From NCBI RefSeq assembly GCF_022539665.2, contig NC_081332.1, forward strand, positions 682,001 through 746,000: a stretch of 64,000 bases of DNA. The letters run 5' to 3'. Of the stretch, positions 3,863 through 48,397 are shown piece by piece (positions within the stretch are counted from its first letter, which is position 1; every line of letters starts with the position of its first letter). Origin of the DNA: Daphnia carinata (lineage: Eukaryota). Below the pieces are notes generated by a model. It did not search any database, had not been told where the DNA came from, and saw nothing but the letters and a program-made list of their open reading frames with translations. The position numbers were made by a program, and so were the translations under genes.

Positions 3863-3930
3863 GCATTTCAGACAACTATTACAGCCAAATATACCAACAG
3901 CAATTGACCTGATGAACATTCAACACTACT

Positions 3931-4418: not shown

Positions 4419-4689
4419 TAGCAATGAAGTGCAAACAAATATGGACACTGCACACCGATTGCACTATCTTTTTTTGGAAGCTTCATAATTATTTGCCTAT
4501 ATCTTGGCCTAGTACTAAGTAATGGAAAACCACATATGCGCTAAATACAACCAGGCTGTCGTAAAGTTAGTTAATGTTGTCCCGTGGCATTCATGTCATT
4601 GATGTCAAACAAATTTGGTTGCCTTACAGACTTACAGATGGCGGTGACCTCACGAATCAATGAGTCAATCTTGTAAAATGCAAACCGAT

Positions 4690-4762
4690 TGTTCTCACCC
4701 AGGGTCGAACTGAGGACCTTCAGCATGTAAAGCCGACGTGATAACCGCTACACTATGAGAAC
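4690..4762 (-). tRNA. tRNA-Val(TAC)
   Basis: As 3614-3686 with one substitution at position 38 (C>T). Confidence 0.93.
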
Positions 4763-4865
4763 GTTCAATTTATGTCACCAGCAACGGTCTTAATCCAATC
4801 ATGACGAAATCAGGAAATTCCAAATTAATAGTCGTCTTTCACATTTGCTTTTCACTTAAATGTCT

Positions 4866-4938
4866 TGTTCCCACCCAGGATCGAACTGAGGACCTTCAGC
4901 GTGTTAGGCCGACGTGATAACCACTACACTATGGGAAC
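4866..4938 (-). tRNA. tRNA-Val(AAC)
   Basis: Identical to 2713-2785. Confidence 0.95.
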
Positions 4939-5006
4939 GCATTTCAGACAACTATTACAGCCAAATATACCAACAGCAATTGACCTGATGAACATTCAAC
5001 ACTACT

Positions 5007-5079
5007 CGTACGAGGTGGGGGTCGAACCCACGACCAATTTATTACCAATCTTTTCCTCTAACGACTGAGCTAGCCAGGA
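5007..5079 (-). pseudogene. tRNA-Lys-like pseudo-tRNA, copy 3
   Basis: Identical to 2854-2926. Confidence 0.7.
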
Positions 5080-5290
5080 CACATGAACGATGAATCCTCT
5101 GTCAACCATGTATTTTTCGGTGTTTGAAATTTTCAGATTATCCGTCTAAAATCTAGTTTTCAACTTACCAAACATCCCTAAACTTATTATAAATCGTTAA
5201 TGAGTTATTTCGTGAGTGAAATAAGTCTAGTTACATGTGTTCACGGCCAGGCAAACGGTACCAGCAAACGAAACCCAATACTGAATCTAC

Positions 5291-5584: not shown

Positions 5585-8500
5585 TTATTCTTCCGCCAAT
5601 AACCGGATCCGTTCCTTTGCTGCAAGGGCTGCTTGACGTGGGGGGCGAGGTGATGGAGTTGGATCTGAAGAGACGGTTTGAATCGGATAATGTGGAGAAG
5701 CTTCGGACGTCTCAGTGATTTCTAATGGATATAATTTTGAGACGGGGCGGTTCGTCTTTCCTTCGGCGGTGCGAATTTCAGCAATGCGGGTTTCTCCATC
5801 TGGGCTGACGATGAGCTTCTCTATAATGGCCAACTTCCAGTCTATTCTAGGCCCTTCGTTGTGAACTAGTACAACGTCGCCAACCTTGGCGCTGGATTCA
5901 AAATGTTTTCCGGAAACGATGTGACGTTCGCGTAGGCTGGTTAAGTAGTCCCTCTGCCAGCGTTTCCAAAAGGACTTCAGAATGCGTTGTCGACGAGAAA
6001 ACATATTTAGCAGATGAGATGGTTTCTCGCCAAAGGTGGGGTCCAGTAGCTCTTCGTCGGTGGCTGGATCGTAGGGAAAGCGAGTTAGGCGGTCTCCGTA
6101 AAGAAGGTGAGAGGGTGTAAGTGCCTGAGGATCACGCAAATCGGATGACACGTAGGTGAGAGGGCGATCGTTAAGAATGGTCTCGATTTCCGCGACGATT
6201 ATGCGAAACTCATTAAACTTGAGTCGCGTACGACCGAGCATTTTCTTTAGAGCTTCTTTGGTGAGACCGACGAGACGCTCCCAAAAACCACCATACCAAG
6301 GGGCGCGCTTTGGGATGAAACGCCATTCGATTTGGTTGTCTGAAAGGTATTTGACGACTTCAGTGCTCTCGTAGAGTCTTTTTAGCATTCGGGCGGCGCT
6401 TTCAAAGGTGGTCGCGTTGTCTGATAGTACCATCCTCGGCTGGAAATGGTGAGTTATGAAGCTCCTAAAGGCTAAAATGAAATTAGCTGTTGTAAGGTCC
6501 TCTACCAGCTCAAGGTGGATGGCGCGGGAAGTAGTGCAAGTGAAGAGGCAAATATAAGCTTTTGATTCTTCCTGACCAGGTAGAGCTCGGATGGGAAATG
6601 GGCCGGCAAAATCAATTCCGGTCACGGCAAATGCCCTATCGCCACGGACGCGAAAACTAGGTAGACTGGCTGAGTTTGGAGCTCGGTATGGAGGTCCGTT
6701 CACCCGGCGGCAGGTTGTACAAAGTCGCACGACAGCTTTCACCTGTTGTCTGATGGAGGATATCCAAAAACGTTGGCGGATATGACAAATGGTGGAAGCT
6801 GCGCCAGAGTGTAGAGCACGTTCATGATAGAATCGTATGATGATCTCCGAAAGCTTAGAATTCTTAGGGATAAGAATAGGGTTCTTCGCGTCACTGGATA
6901 GATCAGCATTAGTTAAACGTCCTTGGCAACGAATTATGGAATTATTGTCAATATAAAGGTCCAGCTGAGATACCAATGAAGGGCGGCGTCCTCGTTTGTC
7001 ACCACAGAGGTAATCGTATTCAGCTGCGAGGAACCGGAATTGGAAGGAGTGAATCCATTTGATCTCAGCTTGATGGAGCTCATTAGTAGATAGAAATCCC
7101 TGTATCCATTTTTCTTTCTTCTGGCGAAAATTGTATAGTTGGCGGAATAAAACAGCTGTTGTTCTCTTCAAAGAAGTCCAGTTGAAACGGCTAATGTCCA
7201 TGACTTTTGCGATATCGATTGTGAGCGGAAGACGAGTTGGAGCCGTTTTGGTAGAAATGTCCATTAAATGAAGGATCTTAACTTGATTCAGCCTCGATAC
7301 GCTCCATTGTGGCCAATCTTCGCGAGATGGTAACCAAGAGGGTCCGTTTATCCAAATTGGGGATGCTTGAAGCTGTTGTAGAGTAATGCCTCTGGTTAGT
7401 AGGTCTGCGGGGTTTGATGTAGTGGGGCAATAGTTCCAAGTAGCCAGATGAAGTCGATTGAAGGCTTGGATTGTGGCGATGCGGTTGGAAACAAAAGGAT
7501 TTTTGAGTCGATCAGCTTTTGAAAGCCAATATAAAACAATTTGACTATCTGACCACATAAAAATCTCCAAAAGAATGTTAAGGGACTTGAAAGCCGTTAT
7601 GATAGTAGTTGCCAGACGAGTGCCGATAATCGCCGCCATCAGTTCCAGTTGGGGTAGAGTTAGCTGTGGAGTATTTCCTTTCAACGGGGCTACTCTAGCC
7701 TTTGACATGACGAATGCTGTATCTTGACCATCCAGAAGATACGCAACCGCGCCGTATGCTTGCTGACTGGCGTCAACAAATACGTGGAGTGAGTTCACCC
7801 GAGATCGAGTTCCAAAATAGGAACGGCGAATCTTTGGTTTTGCATTGACTAGTGCGTTAGCCAGACTGTTCCATTTGTCAGCGAAGGGAGAAGGTAATGG
7901 ATCGTCCCATTCTAGTTTTTCTTTCCAAATTTGTTGAATAAGTATGCGTGCCGGGATGGAGAGCGGTGAAATAAAACCCAGAGGGTCGTAGATGGAGGCG
8001 ACTGCTCGTAGTAGATCACGCTTCGTAGCTTTTGGCGTACAAAACTGTGGAAGGCTGAAATGTGGAAGCTGTAGTTGGTCGGTCGTGCGATCCCACAATA
8101 ATCCAAGAGCTTTTGTAAGAGACGAAGCGTCGGCTACCCCGTCAAGAATAGCGCGATTGTTAAGAGATGCGTCGCTGAATGCCCAAGAATGCAAGGATAA
8201 AGATGCAGCTTGAAATGTTGAAATAGATTCAGCATAGTAAATCGAGGCTTCAGCTGTAGTTTCACTGCCGGACATTAAGTTATCCACGTAAATGTTGGAC
8301 TCGATATCAGTACTGACGGGGGATGAGTAACGTTGTAGATGCTTCTTGATCACCGAATTTAATATGAAGGGACTGCTACTTGCGCCGAATGGAATTACCT
8401 TGAAACGATATATTGCGAAGTCAGACTCTGGATCGTTGTCATCACTTAGCCAGAAGAAACGGACAAAATCCCGATCGGCTTCGTAAAGTTGAACCTTATG

Positions 8501-11122: not shown

Positions 11123-11222
11123 NNNNNNNNNNNNNNNNNNNNNNNNNNNNNNNNNNNNNNNNNNNNNNNNNNNNNNNNNNNNNNNNNNNNNNNNNNNNNN
11201 NNNNNNNNNNNNNNNNNNNNNN
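11123..11222. other. Assembly gap (100 N)
   Basis: Run of N; the true distance between the flanks is unknown. Confidence 1.
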
Positions 11223-21909: not shown

Positions 21910-22965
21910 TTAAGGCCTGAAAGCGCCACGGTAAATACGTTCGTATCCTGTCGACTTGTAGGCAGTGGGCTTGTAGACAGGGACATCGTAGGCTGCCGGG
22001 GATTTGTATGCTGTCTGTTGGTACGAAGTTTCATAGCTGGGCTTGTATTCCGGCTTGTATTCCGGCTTGTATTCCGGCTTGTACTCTGGCTTGTAATCGG
22101 GCTTGTAATCAGCTTGGTATTCCGGCTTGTAATCAGCTTGGTATTCCGGCTTGTATTCGGGTTCGTACTCGGGCTTGTATTCTGGCTTGTAGCTGGGTTT
22201 GTATTCGGGTTTGTAATCTGGCTTGTAGTCCGCCTCGTATTCCGGCTTATACTCGGGTTGGTATTGTGGCTTGTAGTCGGGCTTGTAGTCGGGCTTGTAG
22301 TCGGGCTTGTAGTCGGGCTTGTAGTCGGGCTTGTAGTCGGGCTTGTAGTCGGGCTTGTAGTCGGGCTTGTAGTCGGGCTTGTAGTCGGGCTTGTAGTCGG
22401 GCTTGTAGTCGGGCTTGTAGTCGGGCTTGTAGTCGGGCTTGTAGTCGGGCTTGTAGTCGGGCTTGTAGTCCGGCTTGTAGTCCGGCTTGTAGTCCGGCTT
22501 GTAGTCCGGCTTGTAGTCCGGCTTGTAATCGCCCTTGTAGCCGCCATGGTTGTAATCCCAAGCATGTTCGCCATGACCCTCATAAGCGTCGGCCCACTTG
22601 ACCTATGATTTAATGACATCAAAAAATCAAATAAAGCATTTAGAAATCGTTTGAATAAAAATAATTGGATTAAATGTATACCTTTGTGCGGAAGTTGCCG
22701 TCTTTGTATTGTTCATGACGTGACACGTGATGATCGGAATTGCCACGATTAAAACCGAATTCATATTCACCTTCCGCTGGAACGTTAGCGTACTGGAAAT
22801 AGCCTTCCAACTTGTCGTAAGGACCGTACGGTTTCACTTCGTCAGCGAATGAGATGGCCAAAAGACCCAAAAGGACCAAACTCGTCTGAATACAAATTCC
22901 AATTCAAAACATGAGATATTCTAAATATTTCAAGAATGAATATTTACCACGTAATAGATGTTCAT
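21910..22965 (-). CDS. Secreted cuticle-type protein with a long (YKPD/YKPE)n tail, 3 exons
   Basis: MNIYYV|TSLVLLGLLAISFA...YFQYANVPAEGEYEFGFNRG...FRTK|VKWADAYEGHGEHAWDYNHG followed by YKPD repeats to TAA at 21910; TATA box near 23050. The true reading frame is not among the listed ORFs. Confidence 0.85.
22040..22530. repeat. Coding 12-bp minisatellite (GGGCTTGTAGTC and variants)
   Basis: A run of perfect copies at ~22268-22470, with variant copies on both sides. Confidence 0.97.
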
Positions 22966-27021: not shown

Positions 27022-27587
27022 TTTCTGAATGGTTTTTAACACAAAGCTGTGAGTAACAACAAGGAAGTTCCACCAAAAAGTTTCGGAAACTGTTGATTTT
27101 CTGGGAGGTAAAATTATCGGTACAAAAACGGCCAAAACGCTGAATCGAGTTCAATTCATTCAAGGAGAAAAATTTACCACTTTTAAATTACTCATTTGAA
27201 TGAGAGAGGTGAACCGGTAACAAGAATAACTACAAAAAGCACCGCCAGAGGGCTGCGAAAGTTAGATGTTCGAAGGCGATCAGATACCGCCCTAGTTCTA
27301 ACCATAAACGCGTTAAATAATTGTCGCTTAACAATTCGGTTCCGATATGAATCGGTTAACAAGGTTGTGACATGCCGGTATGACAATCCGTTTTACATAA
27401 AAAAAAAAAAAAATGGCGGAAAAAAAAAAAAAAATCGCACTTTTTTCTCTTTTTTCTACCCGTAGCCATCTATCAGTCGGTTTCGTTATTACAGGCATGT
27501 AAGCAATTTCAGTTAATTGTATCCCATTAGCAGTTAATTGAGTAGCGTGGCTGGAGAACAACGCGTGGCTGGAGGAACAATTGAAAA

Positions 27588-28330
27588 ATGGATAAGATAA
27601 TAAAACAAAAAAATGGTAAGTATAAACATTATTATATTGGTTTTCAATTATTAATTATTGTTTATTAGATCAAATTATGAAGCTGCAGGCCCAATTATTG
27701 GAACAACACAAAATATTAGATAACAGCAAAGCTAAGGATGGTAAGGCCTAATACGTAATGATTCTATTTATTTGCTTTTATTCATTTGTGTTTTGTAGCT
27801 CAAATTTTGAGTCTACAAGCTCAGCTAGGGGAAAAGAACAAATTGGAACGGAACAGTTTCCAAACAGTGAATGAGGTTTTTCCAAACTCATCCCTAACTG
27901 AACATGAGGATGAGTTGGCATTAGGCGAACACAGTCAGGTACCTAAACTTTTCAAATAAGAATGCAAAATAAGTACAGAATTTTAACAAACAATTATTTA
28001 TTGTTTAGTTATTCAGTCTACCACCTGACAGTGTGTTAAAGTTAAATTCTGTTAGTGCTGCACTAAAAGAATTGTTAGTAATAAGTCCATGCAGCGAAGG
28101 AAGTGAACAATTGTGGGACCGTATTTGGGCTGAAAATGGGTGTGGTACGGAAACCCAGAAATAGCACAAGTTCAACATAAAACATGAATTAGGTACTTTT
28201 CGGTTTTTTGTCTATTGAAAAAGTATTTTTAATGCTATTATTTTGCATTCACAGAATTTTAGTGGGGGATCAAGTCAAGTCTGGAAGTGTTACAGGATGG
28301 AAGAGTGAGCCTACAGTTGAAAAACACTGA
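27588..28330 (+). pseudogene. Spliced coiled-coil gene remnant inside the element arm (copies also at ~39212 plus, ~32088 minus, ~47737 minus)
   Basis: MDKIIKQKN|DQIMKLQAQLLEQHKILDNSKAKD|AQILSLQAQLGEKNKLER...|LFSLPPDSVLKLNSV...LWDRIW with GT-AG introns; this copy has an in-frame TAG near 28162. Confidence 0.55.
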
Positions 28331-29084
28331 AAGTGCATTACCATTAAGGTATGAGGTAAAGTAATAGAGTATGCAAATTGTCTAATGAGAAGTACCATCT
28401 TGTGTGAATGAATCCTGTGTAACAGCAATCCTCTATAGTTCTGTCACAGCTAGAAGCCTCAAATAATTCTGCTTCCCTTGCTAAAGAACAACTTGTCCTT
28501 TACACTCAGAGTGTTGGTGAAGCTGGGTACTTAAATGGCCCTAAAGATGTTTCACTTCACTGGCATTGCAGCGATGAACATCATACATGGACTCTTCAGG
28601 TATGAAAGGAATTTTCTTGAAAAATTTTTGAATTTATGATGCTTTTCTCCTCCTTTTTGCCAACCATGTCTAATCAAAAAAAAAAAAAAAAATTATCCAA
28701 TAAGAAAGGATTTTCAGCATACTGGGAACACAACTATCAACAATGCAACTTTCTAGGGGTGCTATTTTATCATTCAAGAGCCTTATACAATGATTTTCAT
28801 CTGCAATTTGTATGGCCTTTCCCAAGCTTCTGCCAGAAGTTGAATCTATAAGTCATGTAAGTCACATGAGCAACAATTGAGATGCTTAATGGTGTTGTTT
28901 TTCTTTTCTCAGCATAGGTTAAAAGTAACATTGGATCTGAAAAGATTCTTGGTTGGGGCAAGACACTGAATAAATTGTAATGATTGAATGGATGACATGA
29001 CATTTCTATACTTAATTTGGATTCCCGAGACGGTATTTTATATTTAAAAAATTGAAGTGCATATCTGGGCTCCCTTCCTTTCCG

Positions 29085-29410
29085 TAGCCCCGTTTCCCCT
29101 TGACTCGTAATAAGCCCGTAGGGGGTCATGCCCCTACTGTACGGTATATATAAAAACAAAATATACCGAGGTTTGGAGGGCTCTGGCCGGAAAGGGGACG
29201 TGGGGGTCCGCTTAGTCCGATGATGTGTTCACGGAGGGCGACGTGGCTACCCACAAATCCGAACTAAAGGTTAATCGCTCCTGTAAAAATGTTCCAAATC
29301 TTCAGCTCTTTTTCCGGCTTCTCTTAGCCAATCACCGGGTAATCTCCCCGGTGGGTCAACAAGGCAGTGTCCCCCCCTGCCTGGGTTGACGGCAACTTTT
29401 GAAAGGGCTA
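29085..29410 (-). ncRNA. Candidate structured RNA, module A (copy in left arm of element 1)
   Basis: Reverse complement of 30279-30604; a GC-rich island with many hairpins. Confidence 0.4.
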
Positions 29411-29625
29411 TTGTGCCTTTTTAAAGTTGCAAAAATAATTGTAATGTGCAGAGAATTGTCAATAAAATTTTTATTATAAAATATTTTTTGCAAAATTTGT
29501 TTATTTCATTGTCTAGTATTCAAGTATTCAATTATTATTAATTACACTCTTTGAATTGTTCAACTTAGATTCAAGGAACAACGTGTAATATCTGGATATT
29601 TTTTGAAGTAATTTGTATTTTGTTT

Positions 29626-30049: not shown

Positions 30050-30278
30050 ATAGAATGCTTACAGATAAACGATAAACCAATGGAAACAATGCTTACCATC
30101 AAAGGTGACTAAAACAAATAAAGCAAAGCAAAAAAAAAAAGTTGATAAATGTAATGTGTGAACACTGTTAACACAGACAATGAAATAAACAAATTTTGCA
30201 AAAAATATTTTATAATAAAAATTTTATTGACAATTCTCTGCACATTACAATTATTTTTGCAACTTTAAAAAGGCACAA

Positions 30279-30604
30279 TAGCCCTTTCAAAAGTTGCCGT
30301 CAACCCAGGCAGGGGGAGACACTGCCTTGTTGACCCACCGGGGAGATTACCCGGTGATTGGCTAAGAGAAGCCGGAAGAAGAGCCGAAGATATGGAACAT
30401 TTTTACAGGAGCGATTAACCTTTAGTTCGGATTTGTGGGTAGCCACAGAGCTCTCCGTGAACACATCATCGGACTAAGCGGACATCCACGTCCCCTTTCC
30501 GGCCAGAGCCCTCCAAACCTCGGTATATGTTGTTTTTATATATACCGTACAGTAGGGGCATGACCCCCTACGGGCTTATTACGAGTCAAGGGGAAACGGG
30601 GCTA
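30279..30604 (+). ncRNA. Candidate structured RNA, module A (~326 nt)
   Basis: Stems GTCAAC/GTTGAC with AGGCAG/CTGCCT, CACCGGG/CCCGGTG, GCCGGAA/TTCCGGC, TTAGTTCG/CGGACTAA, CGGTATAT/ATATACCG, GTAGGGG/CCCCTAC, closed by TAGCCC/GGGCTA. Confidence 0.45.
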
Positions 30605-33600
30605 CGGAAAGGAAGGGAGCCCAGATATGCACTTCAATTTTTTAAATATAAAATACCGTCTCGGGAATCCAAATTAAGTACAGAAATGTCATGTCATCCA
30701 TTCAATCATTACAATTTATTCAGTGTCTTGCCCCAACCAAGAATCTTTTCAGATCCAATGTTACTTTTAACCTATGCTGAGAAAAGAAAAACAACACCAT
30801 TAAGCATCTCAATTGTTGCTCATGTGACTTACATGACTTATAGATTCAACTTCTGGCAGAAGCTTGGGAAAGGCCATACAAATTGCAGATGAAAATCATT
30901 GTATAAGGCTCTTGAATGATAAAATAGCACCCCTAGAAAGTTGCATTGTTGATAGTTGTGTTCCCAGTATATGAAAATCCTTTCCAATTGGATAAATTTT
31001 ATTTTTAGATTAGACCTGCTTGGCAAAAAGGAAGAGAAATTCTTTGTCATAAATTCAAAATTATTTGAAGAAAATTCCTTTCACACCTAAAGAGTCCATG
31101 TATGATGTTCATCTCTGCAACGGCAGCAAAATCTTAGGGCCATTTAAGTACCCAGTTTCACCAACACTGTGAACGTAAAGGACAAGTTGTTCTTTAGCCA
31201 GAGAAGCAGAATAATTGAGGCTTCTAGCTGTGACAGAACTATAAAGGATTGCTGTTGTATCAGATTCATTAACACAAGATGGTACTTCTCATTAGACAAT
31301 TTGCATCACTCTATTACTCTACCTCACACCTTAACGGTAATGCACTCTCAGTGTTTTTTCAACTACAGGCTGACTCTTCCATCCTGTAACACTTCCAGAC
31401 TTGACTTGATCCCCCCCTAAAATTCTGTGAATGCAAAATAATAGCATTAAAAATACTTTTTCGATAGACAAAGAACCGGGAAGTACCTAATCCATGTTTT
31501 AGGTTGAACTTGTGCCATTTCTCGGTTTCCGTACCATACCCATTTTTGGCTCAAATATGGTCCCACAATTATTCAGTTCCATCGCTGCATGGACTGATTA
31601 CGAACAATTCTTTTAGTGCAGCACTAACAGAATTTAAATTTAACACACTGTGTGATGGTGGACTGAATAACTAAACAATAAATCATTGTGTGTTAAAATT
31701 CTATGCTTATTTTGCATTCTTATTTGAAAAGTTTAGGTACCTGACTGTTTACGCCTAATGCCAACTCATCCTCACGTTCAGTTAGGGATAAGTTTGGAAA
31801 AACCTCCTTCACTGTTTGGAAAGTGTCCCGTTCTAACTTGTTTTTTTTTCCCCAGTAACTGAGCTTGTAGACTCAAAGTTTGAACTAAAAAACAAAAATG
31901 AATAAAACAACACAAATACAATCATTATGTGTTACCATCCTTAGTTTTGTTGTCACCTAATATTTTCTGCTGTTGCAATAATTGAGCCTGCAGGTTCATA
32001 ATTAGAGCCAAAAAACAATAATTAATAATTGAAAACTAATGTAATAATCTTTGTACTTACCATCCTTATCTTTTATTATCTTATCCATTTTAACATATTT
32101 TTCTCCAGCCACGCGTTTTTCTCCACCCACGCTACTCGACTAACTGACAATGGGATCCAATGGACTCAAATTGACATGCCAGTAATAACGATTCTGACCG
32201 GTAGCTGGCTACGGATCGTAAAAAAAAAAATCACAATTTTTTTTTTTTTTTTTTTGTTTAAAACGGATTGCCATAAGTACTGTCTTATCCATAATTTTAG
32301 AAGACATCCTTTATGTCACATCAATTAAAATACTAATCTTTCTAATAGATTCATCCAATTGTGAGCAAGAGTCAGTTTTGGGATTAACAGCCCTCAACAG
32401 ATACAACAACGAACCATATTGAAGTTGTAGCACAAAGTTCGTACAGCCGTGGTTATTCCCGAACACCTATGCAATAGGAACTGCTTGACAGGCAAAAGGT
32501 ACGCTAAAATCCCATAAATTTTGGTGTAATATATATATTTTGCCATCCAGGCTTTGTGGCAACTGCCATGTAGCTTCTTATTGCATGATAGCACAAGTAT
32601 ACTCCATCATCATGATGTTGCAAATGGTAATGCATTTCTACAGAGTTAGCTTGGCTTTCTAATTAAAGTCAAACATTTGTCATATTAGGCAGAACATTCC
32701 TTAAAGACTACAGTGATATGGCGAGCAGGACTTCGGAAAATGTAGCTGGCCTTAAAGCGTCACCTCTGGGTCATGGCCAACCTTGGCACCGAAATTCATC
32801 AAGGCAAGTCAATCCTACTCAAGTGCTAGATATTTTACTGATGAGATGATTCTGTTTGTGTATATAGGATATGGTTTGGACCCTACCTACATGAAAGCAT
32901 ATCATCCTACACTTTTTCCAAGAGTTCTTGATGACGTCTAAGCTGCCTATCCTTATCCCCATGACGATTGTTAAAACAAGGTTTAATTAAGGTAAATTGA
33001 AGACCTTCTTTTACATTAATTTTATAACTGTTTTGAATGATGCAGGCTGGCGATTGGGAAGACATTTAATACACAATGGAAAGTCACGGCATGGAATGTT
33101 AATTGCCTGTCGCCTTTTTATCCAAACTGATGGTTTGTGGTAAAATCTTTGACATCACCAGAAACGGACTGTTGCCAAAGTTTTTGAGCCAGCACGTGTC
33201 CGCACGTCACGCCTCCCAAAAGTCGGACTTAGTTATTGATTCAGTCATTAATAAACCGTTTGGTGCACTGGGATCGAGCCCTAAAAACGGCCATCTGTCG
33301 CCATCTAGGGAAAGTCTAGTTCTGATTAATAAACAAGCCAGATTTCCTTTTTTTTTCAGAAACCTAGATTGCTAGAAAAACAAATGATTTTGGATTTGAA
33401 TTCAAGGCTGATGGCAGAAAACCAGTTTGTTTTCAATTGGAAATAATAGCGGTTCACGGAAAGTATATTTTTTGTCATTTCGAAAATCGAATTAAGAATC
33501 CAAGACTGTTTGACAGGATTAGCTTAGTATCGCACAAACTTTCGTGGCGTTCATTTGAATAATTTCACTGGTTTTTGTTGCATTCGTAGTATTCAAAGGA

Positions 33601-35749: not shown

Positions 35750-38380
<2,631 letters not shown>

Positions 38381-38618
38381 CATTAAACAAAACCATGTTA
38401 AAGTAATCACACTACGAATAGGAGAAAACAAATACCTTTTGACCCTGGAGAGAAAAACATATATCAGAAAGAAACAAATTAGATTATATAGAGACCAGAA
38501 CAAAGATGGATGCTACTAGAATGTACTAACCCGAATAATTTTTTTGGCCACCATATCACCAATGCTCTTGTATCATATGATGCACATATTATATTTCGAC
38601 AGGAATTTCGATTTAATA

Positions 38619-38975
38619 GCCCTGCAGGTAAATACCGCAATGCAGTCCCACCTTTTCCAGTTGTCCCTTTCCTAAAAAAAAGACATTCAGCCACCTATGG
38701 TGCGTTTTCTAAAGTTCAATTCGATGGATTGTCCGTTTTTTTTTAACACGAAATCCAGGACAGGCCTGTGTTTTGTTCCTTTTTATCATCATGTACTTAC
38801 ATAAGTAATCGATCAAATGTCATTTCTGGCTGTCACATAATCTAGGAATAAAAAAAACAATAAATCCATCGAATTAAACTTTAGAAAACGCCCCATAGGT
38901 GGCTGAATGTCTTTTTTTTAGCAATGTGACAACCGGAAAACGTGGGACTGCATTGCGGTATTTACCTGCAGGGCC
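38619..38975. repeat. Palindromic MITE-like structure (~112-bp inverted arms); part of the arm is repeated at 47979-48059
   Basis: GCCCTGCAGGTAAATACCGCAATGCAGTCCCAC...CACCTATGG...TTCGATGGATT is the reverse complement of 38864-38974. Confidence 0.85.
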
Positions 38976-40701
38976 ATGCCCTTATATCATATCATGCACA
39001 TATCTATGGCAATCCGTTTTACACAAAAAAAAAAAATTATTTCGCCAAAAAAAAAAAAAAATTACACTTTTTTCTTTTTTTCGACACGTAGCCATCTACC
39101 GCTCAGACTCGTTATTACTGGCGTAGGCAATTTCAGTCTATTGGATTCCATTCGCAGTTAGTTCAGTAGCGTGGATGGAGAATAACGCGTGGCTGGAGGA
39201 ACAATTGAAAAATGAATAAGATAATAAAACAAAAAAATGGTAAGTATAAACATTATTATATTGGTTTTCAATTATTAATTATTGTTTATTAGATCAAATT
39301 ATGAAGCTGCAGGCCCAGTTATTGGAACAACACAAAATATTAGATAACAACAAAGCTAAGGATGGTAGGCCTAATACGTAATGATTCTATTTATTTGCTT
39401 TTATTCATTCATGTTTTGTAGCTCAAATTTTGAGTCTACAGGCTCAGCTAGGGGAAAAGAACAAGTTAGAACGAGACACTTTCCAAACAGTGAAGGAGGT
39501 TTTTCCAAACTCATCCCTAACTGAACATGAGGATTAATTGGCATTAGGCGAACACAGTCAGGTACCTAAACTTTTCAAATAAGAATTCAAAATAAGTATA
39601 GAATTTTAACAAACAATTATTCATTATTTAGTTATTCAGTCTACCACCTGACAGTGTGTTAAAGTTAAATTCTGTTAGTGCTGCACTTAAAGAATTGTTA
39701 GTAATAAGCCCATGCAGTGAAGGAACTGAACAATTGTGGGACCGTATTTGGGCCGAAAATGGGTGTGGTACAGAAACCCAGAAATGGCACAAGTTCAACA
39801 TGAAATGTGGATTAGGTACTTTTTGGTTTTTTGTCCATCGAAAAAGTATTTTTAATGCTATTATTTTGCATTCACAGAATTTTAGCAGGGGAACAAGTCA
39901 AGTCTGGAAGTGTTACAGGATGGAAGAGTCAGCCTACAGTTGAAAAAAACACAGAGTGCATTACCATTAAGGTGTGAGGTAAAGTAATAGGGTATGCACA
40001 TTGTCTAATGAGAAGTACCATCTTGTGTGAATGAATCCTGTATAACAGCAATTCTTTATAGTTCTGTCACAGCTAGAAGCCTCAAATAATTCTGCTTCCC
40101 TTGCTAAAGAACAACTTGTCCTTTACGCTCAGTGTTGGTGAAGCTGGGTACTTAAATGGCCCTAAAGATGTTTCACTTCACTGGCATTGCAGCGATGAAC
40201 ATCATACATGGACTCTTTAGGTATGAAAGGAATTTTCTTGAAATTTTTTGAATTTATGATTAAGCTTTCCTCCTCCTTTTTGCCAACCAGGTGTAATCTA
40301 CAAAAAAAAATTTATCCAATAGGAAAGGATTCAGCATACTGGGAACACAACTATCAACAATGCAACATTCTAGGGGTTTTATTTTATCATTCAAGAGCCT
40401 TATACAATGATTTTCATCTGCAATTTGTATGGCCTTTCCCAAGCTTCTGCCAGAAGTTGAATCCATAAGTCATGTAAGTCACATGAGCAACAATTGAGAT
40501 GCCTAATGGTGTTGTTTTTCTTTTCTCAGCATAGGTTAATATTAACATTCGATCTGAAAAGATTCTTGGTTGGGGCAAGACACTGAATAAATTGTAATGA
40601 TTGAATGGATGACATGACATTTCTATACTTAATTTGGATTCCCGAGACGGTATTTTATATTTAAAAAATTGAAGTGCATATCTGGGCTCCCTTCCTTTCC
40701 G

Positions 40702-41027
40702 TAGCCCCGTTTCCCCTTGACTCGTAATAAGCCCGTAGGGGGTCATGCCCCTACTGTACGGTATATATAAAAACAACATATACCGAGGTTTGGAGGGCTC
40801 TGGCCGGAAAGGGGACGTGGATGTCCGCTTAGTCCGATGATGTGTTCACGGAGGGCTTTGTGGCTACCCACAAATCCGAACTAAAGGTTAATCGCTCCTG
40901 TAAAAATGTTCCAAATCTTCAGCTCTTCTTCCGGCTTCTCTTAGCCAATCACCGGGTAATCTCCCCGGTGGGTCAACAAGGCAGTGTCTCCCCCTGCCTG
41001 GGTTGACGGCAACTTTTGAAAGGGCTA
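40702..41027 (-). ncRNA. Candidate structured RNA, module A (copy in element 2)
   Basis: Reverse complement of 30279-30604 with few substitutions. Confidence 0.4.
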
Positions 41028-41244
41028 TTGTGCGTTTTTAAAGTTGCAAAAATAATTGTGATGTGCAGAGACTTGTCAATAAAATTTTTTTTATAAAAAT
41101 ATTTTTTGCAAAATTTGTATCTTTATTGTCTGTGTTTGTGTTCACACTTTACAGTTATAAACATTTATTTTATTTCCCTTGCTCAATTCACCTTTTTTTT
41201 TTATGCCACCTTTTATGATAAGCATTCTTTCCATTGGTTTATCG

Positions 41245-41313
41245 TTTATCTGGGATTTGAACCACTAACCTATACCTTTCCAGCATAGCGCGCTACCGTT
41301 GCGCCATGACTGT
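41245..41313 (-). other. Degenerate tRNA-like cloverleaf
   Basis: TGGCGCAACGGTAGCGCG A box, CTATGC-TGGAAAG-GTATAG arm, GTGGTTCAAATCC B box. Confidence 0.6.
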
Positions 41314-41403
41314 TCATATAAATATAAGTTATGATCTTGATGCCTATGTTAAAATAAGTTCGTCATTAGGCTATTATGGAATGCCTATCATGATGATAAC
41401 AAA

Positions 41404-41472
41404 TTATAGATGGCATAATGGCAAAGCTACTGAATTGCATGCAAGATTACTTAGGTTCGATCCCCATATCAG
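41404..41472 (+). other. Weak tRNA-like element (A box plus B box)
   Basis: TGGCATAATGG ... AGGTTCGATCCC at tRNA-like spacing; stems are poor. Confidence 0.4.
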
Positions 41473-41612
41473 TCAATTGAAAATCTAAATAAATAAATGC
41501 AAAAAATAAATGATGTTACAAAGTATTTTATTTTCCCTCCTTCCACCCACAAATCCACCACTATACATATTCCACATAATACAACATACAATACATACAT
41601 ATATACACTTAA

Positions 41613-41931
41613 AACTAACCCGTTGGCTGCCACGCCATCTTAACTACGGTCGCTACGTCGCTATCATAGGGATAGCGACCAAGGGGGCCGGGTAGGCCGG
41701 GCTGATACGATGATGAGACCTTTACGGGAATGCACACCCCAGGTCTCATCTATCGCATCGATCAAGGGAAAGTCCCTATGGTGCATTGCCTTTGGGGCCA
41801 TTCGCCCAATCTTGGGCAGTGGCGCTGCTCCACTTCATAGCAGATAGCCATGGAGCAGAACAGCGCGGCCCGTCCCTGTCAAGCTACAAAAAAAAGGGGA
41901 TAAAAGGTGGGTGGCAGCCAACGGGTTAGTT
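41613..41931 (+). ncRNA. Candidate structured RNA, module B (~319 nt), alternatively a MITE
   Basis: A perfect 21-bp terminal inverted repeat encloses at least four internal hairpins and two loop-strand complementarities. Confidence 0.5.
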
Positions 41932-41964
41932 AAGAATAAACATTGCAAAACACACACAATACCA

Positions 41965-42165
41965 AAACGACGAGGCGAAGACGCGGCTACCACGAAGCAA
42001 AGACGGGATGGCGGGCGAGGCGAAGGCGAAGGCGGGTGACCACGAGGCGAAGAAGGGATGACCGGCAAGTCGTAGACGGGACGACGGGCGAGGCGAAGAC
42101 GGGACGACGGGCGTGGCGAAGACGGGACGACGGGCAAGGCGAAGACGTGAAGACGGGCGCGGAGA
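41965..42165. repeat. GC-rich degenerate minisatellite (GAAGACGGGACGACGGGCGAGGC-like)
   Basis: Repeated GGCGAAGACG(G) units. Confidence 0.8.
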
Positions 42166-44170
42166 AGAGGAAAAAGGCTTTGTTCTGTAACGTAAATGTA
42201 AAGAAAAAGAATTACTTAGTTGGAAATATAAGATTGCTGATGTAGCCAAATGTATGAAAGCAATTTGACTTACTTCTGTTGTCCAATGGCTAGAAATACT
42301 GTAGGGCCAGCACATAGGCAGCAGACAGCAAAGAGATGGCAGTCCTATGGTTGAATATTCAATTTATAAAACAAACAAACTATACTAGGTATGAGAAAAA
42401 TTTACGAATACCAATAGAAATTGTATTGAGGTACATGTCTATGTCTGTTGGTAGGCTAAGTAGAGATTACAATTGTTGAAATGGCTGTGGTTACAGTTGG
42501 CGCTGCAGCATAAGACGAATTTGGTGCACCAGTTAGATTACAATCGACAGGCAACCATGAGCGGGTAAAGATTAGAAGAATAATATTATGGTATTCGTAC
42601 CCATAGGATTTGCATCTTTGGTGACATTCCTCAACGGGAAGTATCCTTTACAAATGAAGTTTCATGAGCTTAACCTTAAAAGAAAAATCCGCTAGTGAGA
42701 TTCCGATAACAATACATTAGTCTTATACCTCTCAATGAGCACCAGAATAGTTTGATGAATGCAACATAATGGGTTGTGAATAGTTGTTTGTTTTGACAGC
42801 TGACATAGGTGATTACAAGACATGTAACATAAAAACCAAGCATTTTGTGGGCTTCACTTGCAAAACACACTCTAGGACGAAAACACACAGAACCACCATT
42901 AGATTTGCTTGAATTTTCCCTTGGAATGTGACATACTTCACAAAAACTTTCGAACACAGGTTTCACTACCCCCACAGTCACCAACTAAACAGTAGCACAG
43001 CAGCGTCATCTTGTTTTCCAATTAAGAACCGAAATTTTCATAAAAATTGAAAATCTTGTTTTTTCGAGACGGGAACTGCACTGATGTGAACTCTTTTAAC
43101 AAACTTCTTGAGCGTGAATCGAGCGTGAATGGCAAATATGGCCCCCCCCCCCATATTTGTACCATTTCAATTTTATTTAAACAAATGTAGCGACCAAAAC
43201 CATGAACAGCATTTTTAAAGTATAGCGATTTAACGTGTTTTTGAGCCCGGATTAGTCACTGTTTTTTATTTATTTATCCAAAAACCTAGATATTTCTAGG
43301 AAAATACATAATTTGGGTTCAGAATTCAAAAAGAAGCTTGGTTGCACTTCACATGTAGAAATTTTGCAACTTCACACATGTCTGGATTTCAAGCTAGTAA
43401 ACATTAAGTCTGTCTGACAATACAATTTTCTTTCTTGAACAGCTGCACGCTATTTCGGCCATATTTCACGGAAAAAATTCTCCACTGAGACAAGGGCATC
43501 GATTGTGCGTTATCGTGCCTATTTCAATTAACCAATCACCAGACAAGGAAAAAAATTCTTCGAAGCAACTACAAAGCTACATGGCTGCCAATATATACTG
43601 CTCCTATTTGTGATAACAATGTATGAAAGGTAGTATCAGCAAATAGTTTTATTGTTGTTTTATTTCTAACCTAACCTTATAATGTAAACCTCCCTTTTTC
43701 TTTTGTTCGTGATGAAGATGGAATTTTCTGTCCTACTTGTTTCTGTCATAGACTGTGTGATCCACCGTTACAAAACTCTACATCAGCAACAATCGTTTCT
43801 CACTGCTCAGAACCTGCAAATGTCGTGAATGAAAAAATTTTAGTTAAAAATAATTTAAAAAATAGTTGTAACACCAAGCATTATTAAACGACTTGCCTAA
43901 CTAAGGAAACCGCTGGAACCACAATGTTTGTCTCCACAATCCTGAAATGATTGAAATGACAAGCTTTGCTTTATTTCATTAATTCTAATTTTAAAAAAAG
44001 GAAAAAGCCTAACTGCATGGTTGAGCAGTTTGGCTTGATGCCTTTTTTAAAAAGCAAGAAGGTAGCAATAACCATTATCTCAATGTGCCTGTCGTGCTGA
44101 CTTTTAAGGACACGAGTTACCGTGAAACCAAAGAAAAATAAAATAGGTAATTCATTGATGGGTCTTGCTG

Positions 44171-44815
44171 TTAGATGTTTCTAGTACGTCGAGGTGGTGG
44201 TGGTGGCGATGACGTATCCTCCTTAACAAGCTCAGGTTCGCTAGTTGTTTTCTTGCCACCACGTGTCCGTTTCGTGGCCGGCACGGCCGGAGGTTCATCC
44301 GCCATTGTTGCGGCAGATACTGCCGGGCCCTTCTTTTGTCGTGAACGTTTGGCGGCCGGTGCTTTCTCTTCCTTTTCTTTTGCAGTGGCGGCCACAGTCT
44401 CAATGGTCGGGGTCGCGTTCCAGCTGGACAGAGACTTTCTTCTCAGCCGGTGAAGCCGTCTTCCGCGTCGAACGGGTGATCTGACTGGCGAATGCGCCGT
44501 TTCGGCCACGTCAAAATGAACTTTGAGTGCGCCCTTTGCGCAAGTAGATCGTCCATTTTTGACGGATGTGACTCGCGATCCATCGTTCGCCTCCGGCTCA
44601 TCTGGCACGTGATTGGCATGGATGTCGACAGCGTGTCCGTTCCCTTCGTGTAACATTTCTACATCATCCAATCCAGCAACGTGTTTATTGGCTTTCGTTT
44701 CACCACGACGCCTTTTGCCATCAGGCGCTTCCTTCTCCGGAACGGAGACACGTTTGACAGCACCTCGACGTGTTGTTTTCTTCGTCACCTCGCCATCGGC
44801 TTTTATTGTTCATCT
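44171..44815 (-). pseudogene. Captured terminal exon encoding a basic low-complexity region of an unidentified nuclear protein
   Basis: 205-codon open frame rich in K/R/S/P/T, preceded by a splice acceptor and by in-frame stops just upstream; lies inside element 2. Confidence 0.45.
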
Positions 44816-44959
44816 ATAATAAGACAGTAAAACACCATTAGGCATAAAAACTCTTAATTCATATATTATATTTCATACCTTACATGATTCGTGAGTTGAT
44901 TGCTAGCATATTCTTCTGACAGAAGCTTCGGAAGAGACATTTACGATTTTCGTTTACGC

Positions 44960-46285
44960 TCACCATGGATGCTGGTAGACTAGACATTTAAAGTTAAGAC
45001 ACTTTGCCCAATTCCACCAGTTTTGATTCTTACTTGTAAGTTGTTATTGCACGAGAATGCAGCGACGAAGTCCGCCGTCTTTTTGCTGTCGACAAAAACG
45101 ATAGTCTTGGCTTCACAGAGATCTTGTAAAACTTCGATCAGCTTAGCTCTCTTATCTCTTTTCGTGCACTGAAAAAAAACACCTGTTCAACATCCGAATT
45201 GGTGCAACCAACAATGCCTGTTGTGAAGAATATGTAGTCTTCCATGTACGTCGCAGCCAGCGCTTGTACTTCATCTAGGAATGTAGCCGAAAACATACAA
45301 ACACGACGGATTCCCTACAGAGAAACAAATAGTATTACATCAGTATAATCTCATACTCAAAAGCCATCGAGGACATACTTTCGGATGCATCGTTGGATGA
45401 TTAACAATCTTTTCAACATTGGGACCGAAACCCATATCAAGCATTCGATCAGCATCAACCAAAACTTAAAACCTGACTCCCGAGAAGTCAAATACTTCAA
45501 GGTCGAAAACTCCTTGAATCGCCCCGCGGTCGCGGCAAAAATATTGCACCCAGCTTGAAGATTTGACCGCTGATGGCTCGTGAGAGTTCCTCCATATATA
45601 ATCACAGACTTTAAAACCGAACTGTAGGAGAATTTACACGCCTCGCGGTCAATTTGAATGCCCAATTCACGAGTGGGTGCGACAATTACAACTTCTGGCT
45701 TTTGCCCCATGGCATGAGGCGCACCAGCAACACCTTGTTCTAACAATATGTTCATAACCGGTACCAAGTACGCCGCCTGCATAAAAAAACGTAAAATTTT
45801 AGATGACTTAATCAACGAAGGGTTTATTGAGTATCTTAGATGCAATTGGACCTTTTAGTAGTCGCAATCACAGGCGTGCCCACTCAAAATTACTTTTACT
45901 TCAACTTACCCAGTTCATACCGACCCATTCGAATAAAGTCAGTACGAGGGCATCAAGGTTTCAAAATTACACAACGTTAATTAATTGGATTACCGTTTTG
46001 CCGGAGCCCGTGACAGCACAAGCAATTAAATCTCTTTTGGCAAGAATAACTGCAACTGAAGCTTTCTGAATAGGTGTTGGTTTTATGTAGCCAGAATTCT
46101 TAATGTTTTGACGTAGTAGTTGGCGCAGGCCGGCTTCTTCGAATGATGTTATGTATTGAGGTACATCTTTTCCTGTAACCTGAAGCAAACCCAATAGATA
46201 TTTTTAAATCATAAAATACAGTTTCGAGAAATGGCTTACCTGGAGGACGACTTTATCAAAATTGTTAAAGCGTACCCAAAGACGA
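44960..46285 (-). pseudogene. vas: Second vasa-like fragment (Q motif through STSIHG), cargo of element 2
   Basis: VTGKDVPQYITSFEEAGLR, GYIKPTPIQK, CAVTGSGKT, APTRELGIQI; LDEAD is mutated to LVDAD; introns colinear with 36395-37690; both ends truncated. Confidence 0.88.
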
Positions 46286-48397
46286 TGCCCTTAAAACAGT
46301 TCCTTTTCATAGCATATCACAGCTTCCAGACTGTATTGATCATGAGGCTTTCCATCTTCCGTGAAGCTGCAACATCAGGATCCCATGTATCCTACACAAC
46401 ATACTTTTTCGTCAAATTGAACTAACAGAGCTCAATAAGATCCCTGAACAGTATTAAAAAAAAAGGTAGATTTAAGTGATCATGACTTGTCATTCATAGA
46501 TTAGTACTACCAGCCAATTACGCAGACAGCGACAGAGTTGCTGTTTTGTAAATAAAAATATCAATTTGATTTAATGATCTGCTTTGTTTGCATCAGTTGT
46601 TCACCGATAATTGGAAGATAGCTCATTGAATGTTTCATCCACTTCTGTTTTTCTGCTGTTGTTTGTGATTCACAAGATTTTTTTCTCTCAGTTCTCTGTC
46701 GGCTAATAGACAAACATTCCTTTCATACCTAAAGAGTCCATGTATGATGTTCATCTCTGAAATGGCAGCAAAGTAAAATATCTTTAGGGCCATTTAAGTA
46801 CCCAGTTTCACCAATACTCTGAACGTAAAGGACAAGTTGTTCTTTAGCCAGAGAAGCAGAATTATTTGAGGCTTCTAGCTATGACAGAACTATAAAGGAT
46901 TGCTGTTGTACCGGATTCATTAACACAAGATGGTACTTCTCATTAGACAATATGCATAACTCTATTACTTTACCTCTCACCTTAATGGTAATGCACTCTC
47001 AGTGTTTTTTCAACTACAGGCTGACTCTTCCATCCTGTAATACTTCCAGACTTGACCCCCCCGCTAAAATTCTGTGAATGCAAAATAATAGCATTAAAAT
47101 TACTTTTTTAAAAGACAAAAAACCGAGAAGTACCTAATCCATGTTTTATGTTGAACTCGTGCAATTTCTGGGTTTCCGTACCACACTCATTTTCAGCCCA
47201 AATACGGTCCCACAATTGTTCACTTCCTTCGCTGCATGGATTTATTACTAACAATTCTTTTAGTGCAGCACTAACAGAATTTAACTTTAACACACTGTCA
47301 GGTGGTAGACTGAATAACTAAATAATGAATAATTGTTTGTTAAAATTCTATACTTATTTTGAATTCTTATTTGAAAAGTTTAGGTACCTGACTGTGTTCG
47401 CCTAATGCCAATTTATCCTCATGTTCAGTTAGGGATGAGTTTGGAAAAACCTCCTTCACTGTTTGGAAAGTGTCTCGTTCTAACTTGTTCTTTTCCCCTA
47501 GCTGAGCCTGTAGTTTCAAAATTTGAGCTACAAAACACGAATGAATAAAAGCAAATAAATAGAATCATTACGTATTAGGCCTACCATCCTTAGCTTTGTT
47601 GTTATCTAATATTTTGTGTTGTTCCAATAACTGGGCCTGCAGCTTCATAATTTGATCTAATAAACAATAATTAATAATTGAAAACCAAAATAATAATCTT
47701 TATACTTACCACTTTTTTGTTTTAATATCTTATCCATTTTTCAATTGCTCCTCCAGCCACGCAGTTTTCTCCAGCCACGCTGCTCAATAAAATGCAAATG
47801 GCATACAATTAACTGAAATTGCATACATACTTGTAATAACGAAACCGACGGGTAGATGGCTACGGGTGGAAAAAAGAGAAAAAAAGTGTGATTTTTTTTT
47901 TTCCGCCATTTTTTTTTTTTTTCATGTAAAACGGATTGCCATACATATCATATTTTCGACAGGAATTTCGATTTAATAGCCCTACAGGTAAATACCGCAA
48001 TGCAGTCCCACCTTTTCCAGTTGTCACTTTCCTAAAAAAAGACATTCAGCCACCTATGGCTTAAAATTTTTTTCGGTCAGTGTATGTAGAGAATTTACTA
48101 GAAATGTGACCGTTAGATGACGATAGTAGTAAAACAGAAAAAAAGGCCAAATATTTTTTATTTTTATTTGGGTAAAACAGCCATATATACAACCATGCTT
48201 TTATTTTTTGCTACTATCATTTCAAGTTTGAAAGTTGCACACGGGCAAATTAAAAATTGAACTTTAAATTCACGCCCTTGCTCGTGGGGAAAGGAAAATT
48301 TACGATTAAAACTCTTTGAGAAGCAAATTGGGAAGCCTGTGCAATTCCGATACAAAGCAAACACTACTATTTTTCGTAAATTCAAAACATTGGCGAA

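What the first reader, a model, noticed from the sequence alone, without database searches (positions are those of the whole stretch)
41613..41931. Module B: 319-nt element with a 21-bp closing stem and a predicted double pseudoknot
The closing helix is 41613-41633/41911-41931. Hairpin 1 (GTCGCTATC/GATAGCGAC) has loop ATAGG (41666-41670), complementary to CCTAT (41775-41779). Hairpin 2 (GATGAGACCT/AGGTCTCATC) has loop sequence AATGCAC (41729-41735), complementary to the adjacent GTGCATT (41781-41787). So two separate loops read one contiguous strand. That strand has alternative partners (GGGA/TCCC, CATTGCC/GGCAGTG), hinting at a switch. Further helices are CTGCTCCA/TGGAGCAG and CGGGCTG/CGGCCCG, and G-U pairs favour the plus strand. 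This interior is more ordered than I would expect of a MITE and matches no RNA family I recognise.
Basis: partly seen in the sequence, partly recalled or inferred. Interest (0 to 1): 0.82.

Follow-up and report, generated by a model that had tools for sequence, protein, structure and literature searches.

The report
Pseudoknotted RNA domain in Daphnia lncRNAs
This is a 319-base, hairpin-rich sequence shared by several gene copies in at least three water-flea (Daphnia) species; it likely folds, on the opposite strand from the one first proposed, as the working end of a spliced non-coding RNA with one supported pseudoknot, and it matched no Rfam family.

Summary
All listed helices are at the stated places and the interior folds far better than shuffles. 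The host is a Daphnia. The element is not a free-standing MITE. It lies in the last exon of a unit of at least 1.1 kb: two short exons, 23-nt C/U-rich repeats, the domain and a poly(A) signal. One public run holds many 80-100% identical copies, and spurious gene models show relatives in D. magna and D. sinensis. A GT-AG splice joint, those gene models and most (not all) G-U wobbles point to the minus strand, not the plus. The loop-2/strand helix has one cross-species compensatory change (G-C to A-U; simulated P 0.01-0.02) and is cheap to form. The loop-1 helix has no covariation, is energetically unfavourable as drawn and competes with a conserved hairpin. No Rfam family matched and ten paper searches listed no description. 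Best reading: a new structured lncRNA domain, likely a protein-binding or processing module. Rivals: a piggyBac-like relic (TTAA-CCC-like ends) and a new ribozyme. Evidence is thin: one run of uncertain type and one back-translated homologue. The scan had not noted this on other DNA.

The parts
41911..41931 (-). Closing stem P1, 5' arm of the minus-strand RNA (21 bp)
   Evidence: the D. magna codons fit with one forced change among the fixed positions, at 41929
41613..41633 (-). Closing stem P1, 3' arm
   Evidence: kept in 5 run contigs whose neighbouring interior did not align (joints from 41636-41638)
41881..41910 (-). U-rich segment and imperfect stem extension (partner 41635-41641)
   Evidence: U-rich tract also implied in D. 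magna; indels in other copies
41822..41866 (-). Hairpin P3, 19 bp in the minus register (one mismatch in this copy)
   Evidence: z -6.4; run variants 41834, 41835, 41839, 41854 and D. magna changes 41828, 41829, 41839 keep pairs; D. magna 41852, 41822, 41823 do not in this register
41803..41818 (-). Small hairpin P4 (not shown to be conserved)
   Evidence: p 0.88; 41805 differs in 10 of 10 covering contigs with no listed partner change
41781..41787 (-). Target strand S2 (AAUGCAC), partner of loop 2: pseudoknot 2
   Evidence: compensatory 41784 G>A with 41732 C>U in D. magna; unchanged in run contigs where readable
41775..41779 (-). Target strand S1 (AUAGG), candidate partner of loop 1; overlaps hairpin P5
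   Evidence: changed in 2 contigs; no covariation seen
41765..41777 (-). Hairpin P5 (AGGG/CCCU core, loop length varies)
   Evidence: p 0.91; core kept in run variants and D. magna
41704..41759 (-).
   Evidence: z -6.8; two-sided changes within single contigs at 41710/41753 and 41710-41711/41751-41752
41686..41698 (-). Small hairpin P7; sequence and length vary, pairing kept
   Evidence: three different stems at this place
41657..41679 (-).
   Evidence: three contigs align across it, but differences there are not listed by the tool
41969..42170 (-). 23-nt C/U-rich tandem repeats (47% C, 4% A; 41969-42100 unstructured, z +1.1)
   Evidence: present in D. magna and D. sinensis models
42185..42273 (-). 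89-nt GT-AG intron
   Evidence: joint 42184-42274 with ends CT..AC; only candidate with a perfect GTAAGT donor among 16 listed
42274..42345 (-). Internal exon B (72 nt)
   Evidence: covered in run X1; D. magna residues 20-43 align to 42346-42275, score 40 vs 21.5-25.5 in 6 shuffles
42346..42411 (-). Probable 66-nt GT-AG intron
   Evidence: loose end at 42341 continues into exon A sequence; splice letters; did not pass my donor filter
42412..42644 (-). Exon A and upstream homologous region (5' end not found)
   Evidence: D. magna residues 1-19 fit 42472-42414 weakly (20 vs 13-17); D. sinensis P0029 fits 42644-42516 (46.5 vs 28-29.5)
41527..41532 (-). AATAAA, the only minus-strand copy in 41400-42800; likely poly(A) signal after a G/U-rich tail

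Best explanation
The element is a conserved, multicopy Daphnia sequence that likely forms the folded 3' domain of a spliced non-coding RNA read from the minus strand, where it would act as a protein-binding or end-processing module. Inferred steps: RNA polymerase II makes a transcript with at least three exons. The last exon carries unstructured C/U-rich 23-nt repeats (likely protein docking sites), then the domain, then a G/U-rich tail and AATAAA. The 21-bp stem seals the domain off from its variable flanks. Inside, hairpins P3, P5, P6, P7 and P8 radiate from a multiloop, and the apical loop of P6 docks on the single strand 41787-41781 (7 bp), compacting the core. The P8 loop may dock next to it only if P5 opens; this is unproven. 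The family likely spread by gene or segment duplication, since this copy keeps its introns. Shown: sequence, copies, splice joint and covarying pairs. Inferred: RNA nature of the run, the 3' end and any function.
For: Multicopy: 137 of 571,527 contigs of run X1 lie on 41200-42400 (8 at 99%+, 21 at 95-99, 58 at 90-95, 50 under 90), and several bridge the right arm to the repeats. Cross-species: three D. sinensis models on one 6.95-Mb contig and two D. magna sequences. The D. magna tail aligns over 41939-41722 with score 123 vs 34-49 in 15 shuffles, in a host whose Ki-67-like exon is only about 70% identical to D. magna. Splicing on minus: joint 42184-42274 with CT..AC ends and little or no cover inside the introns; exon B boundaries are reproduced by the D. 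magna model. Non-coding: a 23-nt unit shifts frame; the D. magna frame has a stop and a frameshift here; the Atlas model has pTM 0.17. Structure: two-sided changes in P6 and P7 within single contigs; 41784/41732 G-C to A-U in D. magna, with 5 of 7 pairs of that helix canonical whatever the codon choice (simulated P 0.009-0.019). Keeping those 14 nt free costs 0.8 kcal/mol for a -7.2 duplex.
Against: Only one run holds the sequence and the tool guesses it is DNA, so the spliced form could be an intronless DNA copy; its sister run X2 had 0 contigs. Contigs show neither strand nor ends. The pseudoknot rests on one compensatory event read through amino acids, and 2 of its 7 D. magna pairs are undetermined. 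Three oppositions favour plus (41867/41703, 41907/41638, 41769/41773), and the plus register of P3 also tolerates 41854. 41805 breaks a P4 pair in 10 of 10 contigs. D. magna changes at 41852, 41822 and 41823 disturb P3 as drawn. Five contigs have a 5' interior too different to align. The locus lies among transposons and gene fragments. No function was tested.
Confidence: 0.5

Rival explanations
1. The module is a non-autonomous DNA transposon (piggyBac-like MITE with 15-bp TIRs starting CCC and a TTAA target), or part of a larger non-autonomous element. It landed once in a transcribed repeat and was then copied with it; its hairpins reflect DNA-level palindromes.
For: Ends read CTAA-CCC...GGG-TTAG here and TTAA-CCC is implied at the D. 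magna right end. Daphnia has TTAA-targeting piggyBac MITEs with 12-16 bp ITRs, and CTAA is a rare target (PMC3849761 passages). piggyBac TIRs usually start CCC (PMC10813416 passages). Sequence similarity drops at both arm ends, and the surroundings are rich in mobile DNA.
Against: The flanks are not a direct duplication (CTAA left, TTAG right: inverted, extending the stem). Copies whose flank could be read share the same downstream repeats rather than unrelated sites. G-U-tolerant and compensatory changes, including in a loop-strand pair, are expected of RNA under selection rather than a decaying MITE. No transposase relative was found near it.
Confidence: 0.22
2. The domain is a catalytic or released RNA: a new self-cleaving ribozyme, or a roughly 300-nt RNA cut out of the spliced precursor at the 21-bp stem, in the way Daphnia RNase P RNA is made from polymerase II hosts.
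For: Size, closing stem and loop-strand docking resemble folded catalytic RNAs. [quoted passage not shown] D. pulex has ten RNase P RNA genes without pol III signals (PMC4287351 passages). Sequence conservation stops sharply at the stem ends.
Against: No Rfam ribozyme, RNase P or MRP model scored at E up to 10. No hammerhead core on either strand. The module is exonic, not intronic. Contigs run across the right arm into the repeats. No cleavage data.
Confidence: 0.14
3. It is a 3' UTR element (localisation, stability or translation control) of a family of short-peptide genes whose ORF lies in the upstream exons.
For: Spliced, with a poly(A) signal downstream; an ATG near 42437 is present here, in a run loose end and in the D. 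magna model.
Against: The D. magna and window frames differ after five codons and the D. magna frame has a stop here. D. sinensis models use other starts. The upstream 102-aa ORF had 0 hits among 1.84 billion proteins.
Confidence: 0.08
4. The unit is a non-autonomous retroelement RNA and the domain is the structure a helper reverse transcriptase recognises; the spliced contigs would then be intronless DNA copies.
For: The run is tagged 'DNA?' and many diverged copies exist.
Against: This copy keeps its introns. There is no poly(A) tail, LTR or DIRS-type internal complement of the element ends. Near-identical exon contigs exist while the introns have almost no cover.
Confidence: 0.06

Closest known systems
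Modular repeat-bearing lncRNAs such as Xist (PMC8786293, passages)
   Same: Spliced non-coding RNA with conserved tandem repeats of variable number; C-rich and C/U/G-rich short repeats that serve as protein docking sites there
   Different: About 1.1 kb or more rather than 17-19 kb, multicopy, crustacean, with a compact stem-closed pseudoknotted domain; no sequence relationship tested or implied; no function shown
Daphnia RNase P RNA genes (PMC4287351, passages)
   Same: About 300-nt folded RNA with closing stem and pseudoknot (size and fold recalled); multicopy in Daphnia; made from polymerase II transcripts
   Different: RNase P RNA sits in introns, this is exonic; no Rfam match; the GGAAAGUC look-alike is on the plus strand and is lost in D. 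magna and in run variants
Hovlinc, twister, glmS and HDV-like ribozymes (PMC8495972, passages; HDV fold recalled)
   Same: Two pseudoknots proposed; loops of stem-loops dock on a strand
   Different: Larger, no Rfam match, only one pseudoknot supported, no cleavage shown
mPok MITEs of the piggyBac element Pokey (PMC3849761, passages)
   Same: Daphnia, short TIRs, TTAA-like sequence beside CCC ends
   Different: mPok is about 750 bp with direct TTAA duplications at many unrelated sites; here the flanks are inverted, the context is shared and the interior covaries like RNA; ITR sequences were in a figure I could not see
DIRS1-like internal complementary region (PMC3266345, passages)
   Same: One strand that is the complement of two joined distant segments, inside inverted termini
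   Different: The strand complements two internal loops (8+7 nt), not the element's ends; ITRs of 66-316 bp and ICRs of 85-130 bp are far longer; no ORFs

Membership tests
Spliced lncRNA | Spliced transcript with canonical introns | tested here: met
   GT-AG joint in run X1, same exon B ends in the D. magna model; caveat: run type is only guessed
Spliced lncRNA | No conserved reading frame | tested here: met
   only the frames given by the gene models could be compared across species
Spliced lncRNA | Mapped 5' cap and polyadenylated 3' end | not testable with these tools
   contigs only; AATAAA at 41532-41527
piggyBac-type MITE | TIR starting CCC or similar | tested here: met
   15-bp inner arms start CCC
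piggyBac-type MITE | Direct TTAA target-site duplication | tested here: not met
   flanks of the CCC ends are CTAA and TTAG; if the ends are set 4 nt further out, right is TTAA but left is TTAAAA; other copies differ from 41931-41932 on
piggyBac-type MITE | Dispersed insertions in unrelated flanks, empty sites | tested here: inconclusive
   readable copies share the downstream repeats, but a transcript-like run samples only some copies; no genome held
Helentron/DINE-1-like element (PMC4067079) | subTIRs near both ends plus 3' palindrome, T-rich target | tested here: not met
   repeats lie outside the arms; no terminal palindrome after either arm
DIRS1-like retrotransposon | ICR complementary to both element ends; RT/YR ORFs | tested here: not met
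   helix list; ORFs
RNase P / MRP RNA | Covariance-model match and conserved CR-I motif | tested here: not met
   motif on the wrong strand and not conserved
Telomerase RNA | Single-stranded template for TTAGG (Daphnia repeat, PMC4427308) | tested here: not met
   no 7-nt template in the unit; the only hit (41457, minus) lies beyond the AATAAA
Known self-cleaving ribozymes | Rfam model match or hammerhead core | tested here: not met
Known self-cleaving ribozymes | Site-specific self-cleavage | not testable with these tools
   needs an in vitro assay
   one event; P 0.009-0.019
   target changes in 2 contigs in a way tolerated as U-G on minus; their loops not readable; energetically unfavourable as 5 bp

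The most novel reading that the evidence does not exclude
A new class of functional RNA in crustaceans: a roughly 300-nt domain in which two hairpin loops dock side by side on one strand (a splint that is the exact 15-nt complement of the two loop segments joined), made from a multicopy spliced polymerase II precursor and acting as a ribozyme, a switch, or the core RNA of an undescribed ribonucleoprotein.
Probability: 0.15. Interest if true: 0.88.

Novelty: new variant of a known kind. Interest (0 to 1): 0.62.

Why it matters
Animal lncRNAs usually lose sequence and structure quickly; a Daphnia survey says the same for D. pulex (PMC12248125 passages). A multicopy family that keeps its exon layout, repeats and a covarying tertiary pair across species whose Ki-67-like proteins are about 70% identical is a rare, well-delimited candidate for a functional RNA fold. 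It can be tested directly in D. magna. It also shows that at least four 'hypothetical proteins' in the D. magna and D. sinensis annotations are probably mis-called non-coding genes.

Tried and rejected
No whole genome was held, so copy number, target-site duplications and empty sites could not be counted. Rfam: whole window at gathering score gave only 7 tRNAs; E-value scans of 41300-42300, 41605-41940 and 41900-43200 gave 1, 5 and 1 matches, all far below gathering score. Arm-pattern scans: viral contigs 0; prokaryote genomes 0; metagenomes 6 loci, all isolated 19-24-nt matches with no second arm or interior, rejected as chance. P0031 against viral contigs: 16 pattern matches, 0 confirmed. 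No RNA holder was listed by the run search, which is no evidence either way; run X2 gave 0 contigs. The upstream 102-aa ORF had no relatives; the ESM Atlas gave nothing above its bar. Rejected after test: RNase MRP/P, telomerase RNA, C/D snoRNA (the box C-like word at 41710 is changed in 3 contigs), hammerhead, DIRS ICR, Helentron/DINE-1, and a link to the Ki-67-like exon 2.2 kb upstream (no evidence; not covered by the reads laid). Earlier-finding look-ups returned one unrelated Nitrospira note. Depth figures were used only to tell contigs apart and to note cover, not as expression. One search used a rough change rate of 22/120; one search repeated it with the counted 26 of 122.

Full report
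Setting. The window is animal DNA: BEL/Pao retrotransposons and Ig-domain exons, a tRNA array and many repeats. A vasa-like exon is 88% identical to Daphnia carinata over 56% of the query, and an exon at 44174-44809 is 68-71% identical to Ki-67-like proteins of D. magna, D. sinensis and D. carinata. The host is therefore a Daphnia distinct from those species (inference). No whole genome was held.

Observation. The interior alone folds with z -5.2 on plus and -6.5 on minus. Two loops reading adjacent parts of one strand arose in 88 of 5000 and 2 of 300 shuffles under two nulls. No Rfam family matched.

It is one module of a larger, multicopy unit. The run search listed 2 runs, of which 1 (X1) holds the stretch. 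Laid on 41200-42400, X1 gave 137 contigs of 571,527 and X2 gave none. Cover runs from about 41569 through the module, the 23-nt repeats and 42266-42347. Four contigs join the right arm (41932) to the repeats through other letters, and five join the left arm to the later interior through letters that did not align. A protein search with the minus-strand reading of repeats plus module returned 3 of 69 candidates, all Daphnia hypothetical proteins. Their clusters hold 5 sequences: three D. sinensis models on one 6.95-Mb contig and two D. magna sequences, one of them (P0031) assigned to D. magna only by clustering with the named one. The last 72 positions of P0031 align codon by codon to 41939-41722 (score 123; 15 shuffles 34-49). 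Upstream, P0031 residues 20-43 fit 42346-42275 and D. sinensis P0029 fits 42644-42516, so homology spans at least 41613-42644.

Strand and splicing. X1 has a joint from 42184 to 42274 with ends CT..AC, a GT-AG intron on the minus strand; a second row (depth 206) reaches 42274 through the same exon end; cover inside the intron is 0-1.4. This was the only one of 16 listed candidates with a perfect GTAAGT donor. A loose end at 42341 continues into sequence beyond 42412, implying a 66-nt intron with a weaker donor. The tool guesses X1 is DNA; I infer it is RNA from the spliced joints and empty introns, but intronless DNA copies are not excluded. The only minus-strand AATAAA in 41400-42800 is at 41532. 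All five Daphnia models read the minus strand. The two largest hairpins are more stable on minus. Oppositions that are G-U on minus and A-C on plus: 41756/41707 (this copy), 41757/41706 and 41711/41752 (run copies), and, with the partner not readable, 41744/41718, 41746/41716 and the loop-1 target.

Which helices are supported. laid 17 contigs on 41645-41835; 8 pieces were shown. From the from_end column I infer that differences are listed only 31 or more letters from the ends of an aligned part, so silence near ends means nothing. Contigs were told apart by their depth figures. P6: the contig of depth 37.3 changes both 41710 and 41753, and the contig of depth 67 changes 41710-41711 and 41751-41752, keeping pairs. 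P7: three different stems stand at one place, with a C-G to A-U swap. P3: four run variants and three D. magna changes keep pairs in the 19-bp minus register, while D. magna 41852, 41822 and 41823 do not. P5: the AGGG/CCCU core is kept in all five versions read while the loop varies. P4 is not supported: 41805 differs in 10 of 10 contigs with no listed partner. The helix 41698-41704/41866-41872 is uncertain; the minus ensemble prefers another partner. The linker 41637-41656 varies.

The pseudoknots. Loop 2 with 41781-41787: D. magna has Tyr for Cys and Val for Ala, which forces G to A at 41784 and C to U at 41732 on the minus strand. These two positions are partners, so G-C becomes A-U; five of seven pairs are canonical whatever the codons and two are open. 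With the counted rate of 26 forced changes in 122 fixed positions, a compensatory change with all pairs kept arose in 0.9-1.9% of simulations. Both sides are unchanged in the 84%-identical contig and in the identical one. Leaving these 14 nt free costs 0.8 kcal/mol against a -7.2 duplex, loop costs not counted. This is one event on a pairing predicted in advance: real support, not proof. Loop 1 with 41775-41779: a 5-nt loop cannot easily give 5 bp (established knowledge of loop geometry); freeing it costs 6.3 for a -3.2 duplex, and an 8-bp version that opens P5 and part of P8 about breaks even. In 2 contigs the target gains a base and changes its end, tolerable as U-G on minus, but their loops were unreadable. 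It stays possible, as does a switch with P5.

Coding? The repeat unit is 23 nt and varies in number. The D. magna frame has a stop and a frameshift in this copy, D. sinensis models use other starts, the upstream ORF has no relatives and the Atlas model is unfolded. The annotated proteins are likely spurious.

Mechanism. My best reading (0.5) is a spliced polymerase II lncRNA family whose last exon couples unstructured C/U-rich repeats, likely protein docking sites by analogy with Xist repeats (PMC8786293), to a sealed, pseudoknotted domain that binds proteins or directs 3' processing. Rivals: piggyBac-like relic or other non-autonomous DNA element (0.22), ribozyme or released RNA (0.14), 3' UTR element of micropeptide genes (0.08), retroelement RNA (0.06). 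The relic and lncRNA readings are compatible if a MITE was the origin.

Literature. Ten full-text searches combined Daphnia with Helentron, DIRS, RNase P/MRP, ribozyme, multicopy lncRNA, telomerase RNA, pseudoknot, Pokey MITE and lncRNA structure, plus one on hovlinc. None listed a paper describing this family, judged from titles and abstract starts. I read keyword passages only, of PMC4067079, PMC4287351, PMC3849761, PMC10813416, PMC3266345, PMC4427308, PMC12248125, PMC8495972 and PMC8786293; no figures or supplements. Repeat libraries (Repbase, Dfam) and subscription journals could not be checked, so the family may already be filed as an unclassified Daphnia repeat. Helix names P1-P8 are mine. 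Ribozyme, RNase P and snoRNA motifs used are recalled.

Verdict. A real, conserved and apparently undescribed structured RNA domain, on the other strand and in a larger unit than first thought, with one supported pseudoknot and no shown function. Interest 0.62.

Noticed in passing
window 2583-5290: Tandem 1076-bp unit carrying tRNA-Val(AAC), tRNA-Val(TAC) and a third tRNA at 3255-3342 and 4332-4418. ARAGORN in bacterial mode called these Thr and 'Stop', but the alignment shows anticodon GTT followed by two different 15-16 nt inserts: they look like intron-containing tRNA-Asn genes, which would be unusual in animals (recalled).
   Followed up: partly
window 5585-10873 (-) and 48-1466 (+): An intact 1762-aa BEL/Pao retrotransposon ORF and the integrase end of a second one, facing each other across the tRNA array; a 100-N gap lies at 11123-11222.
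   Followed up: partly
window 35753-37694 and 44956-46365 (-): Two partial vasa-like DEAD-box copies, 92% identical over 1.3 kb, with frame breaks or missing parts; the second abuts a lone last exon of a Ki-67-like gene (44174-44809).
   Followed up: partly
window 27379-29530, 30062-32275, 39005-41252, 46713-48059: A roughly 2.2-kb repeat in four copies (85-94% identical, both orientations) with no clear TIR seen; its 121-aa ORF had no Pfam hit.
   Followed up: partly
window 41250-41310 (-) and 41410-41475 (+): Two degenerate tRNA-like heads with A- and B-box-like words in opposite orientation just beyond the unit's AATAAA; possibly SINE remnants (read; not called by ARAGORN or Rfam).
   Followed up: no
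window 38616-38977: Element with 128-bp arms, 91% complementary, 106-bp spacer (MITE-like), partly repeated at 47943-48059.
   Followed up: no
window 37994-38547: 262-bp unit in 2.1 tandem copies, containing the word ACTAACCCG also found in the closing stem; no further similarity.
   Followed up: partly
window 21950-22620: About 42 copies of a 12-bp unit with open frames on both strands, probably a mucin-like exon.
   Followed up: no
window 41576-41589 and run loose end at 41931: A 14-nt U/G-rich word (minus strand) in the 3' tail of this copy recurs in the spacer before the other arm in another copy, so the module may be flanked by related protein-binding words.
   Followed up: no
window 41534-41559 with 42025-42058: In the fold of the whole last exon the G-rich tail pairs with the C/U-rich repeats, extending the closure around the module; untested.
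   Followed up: no
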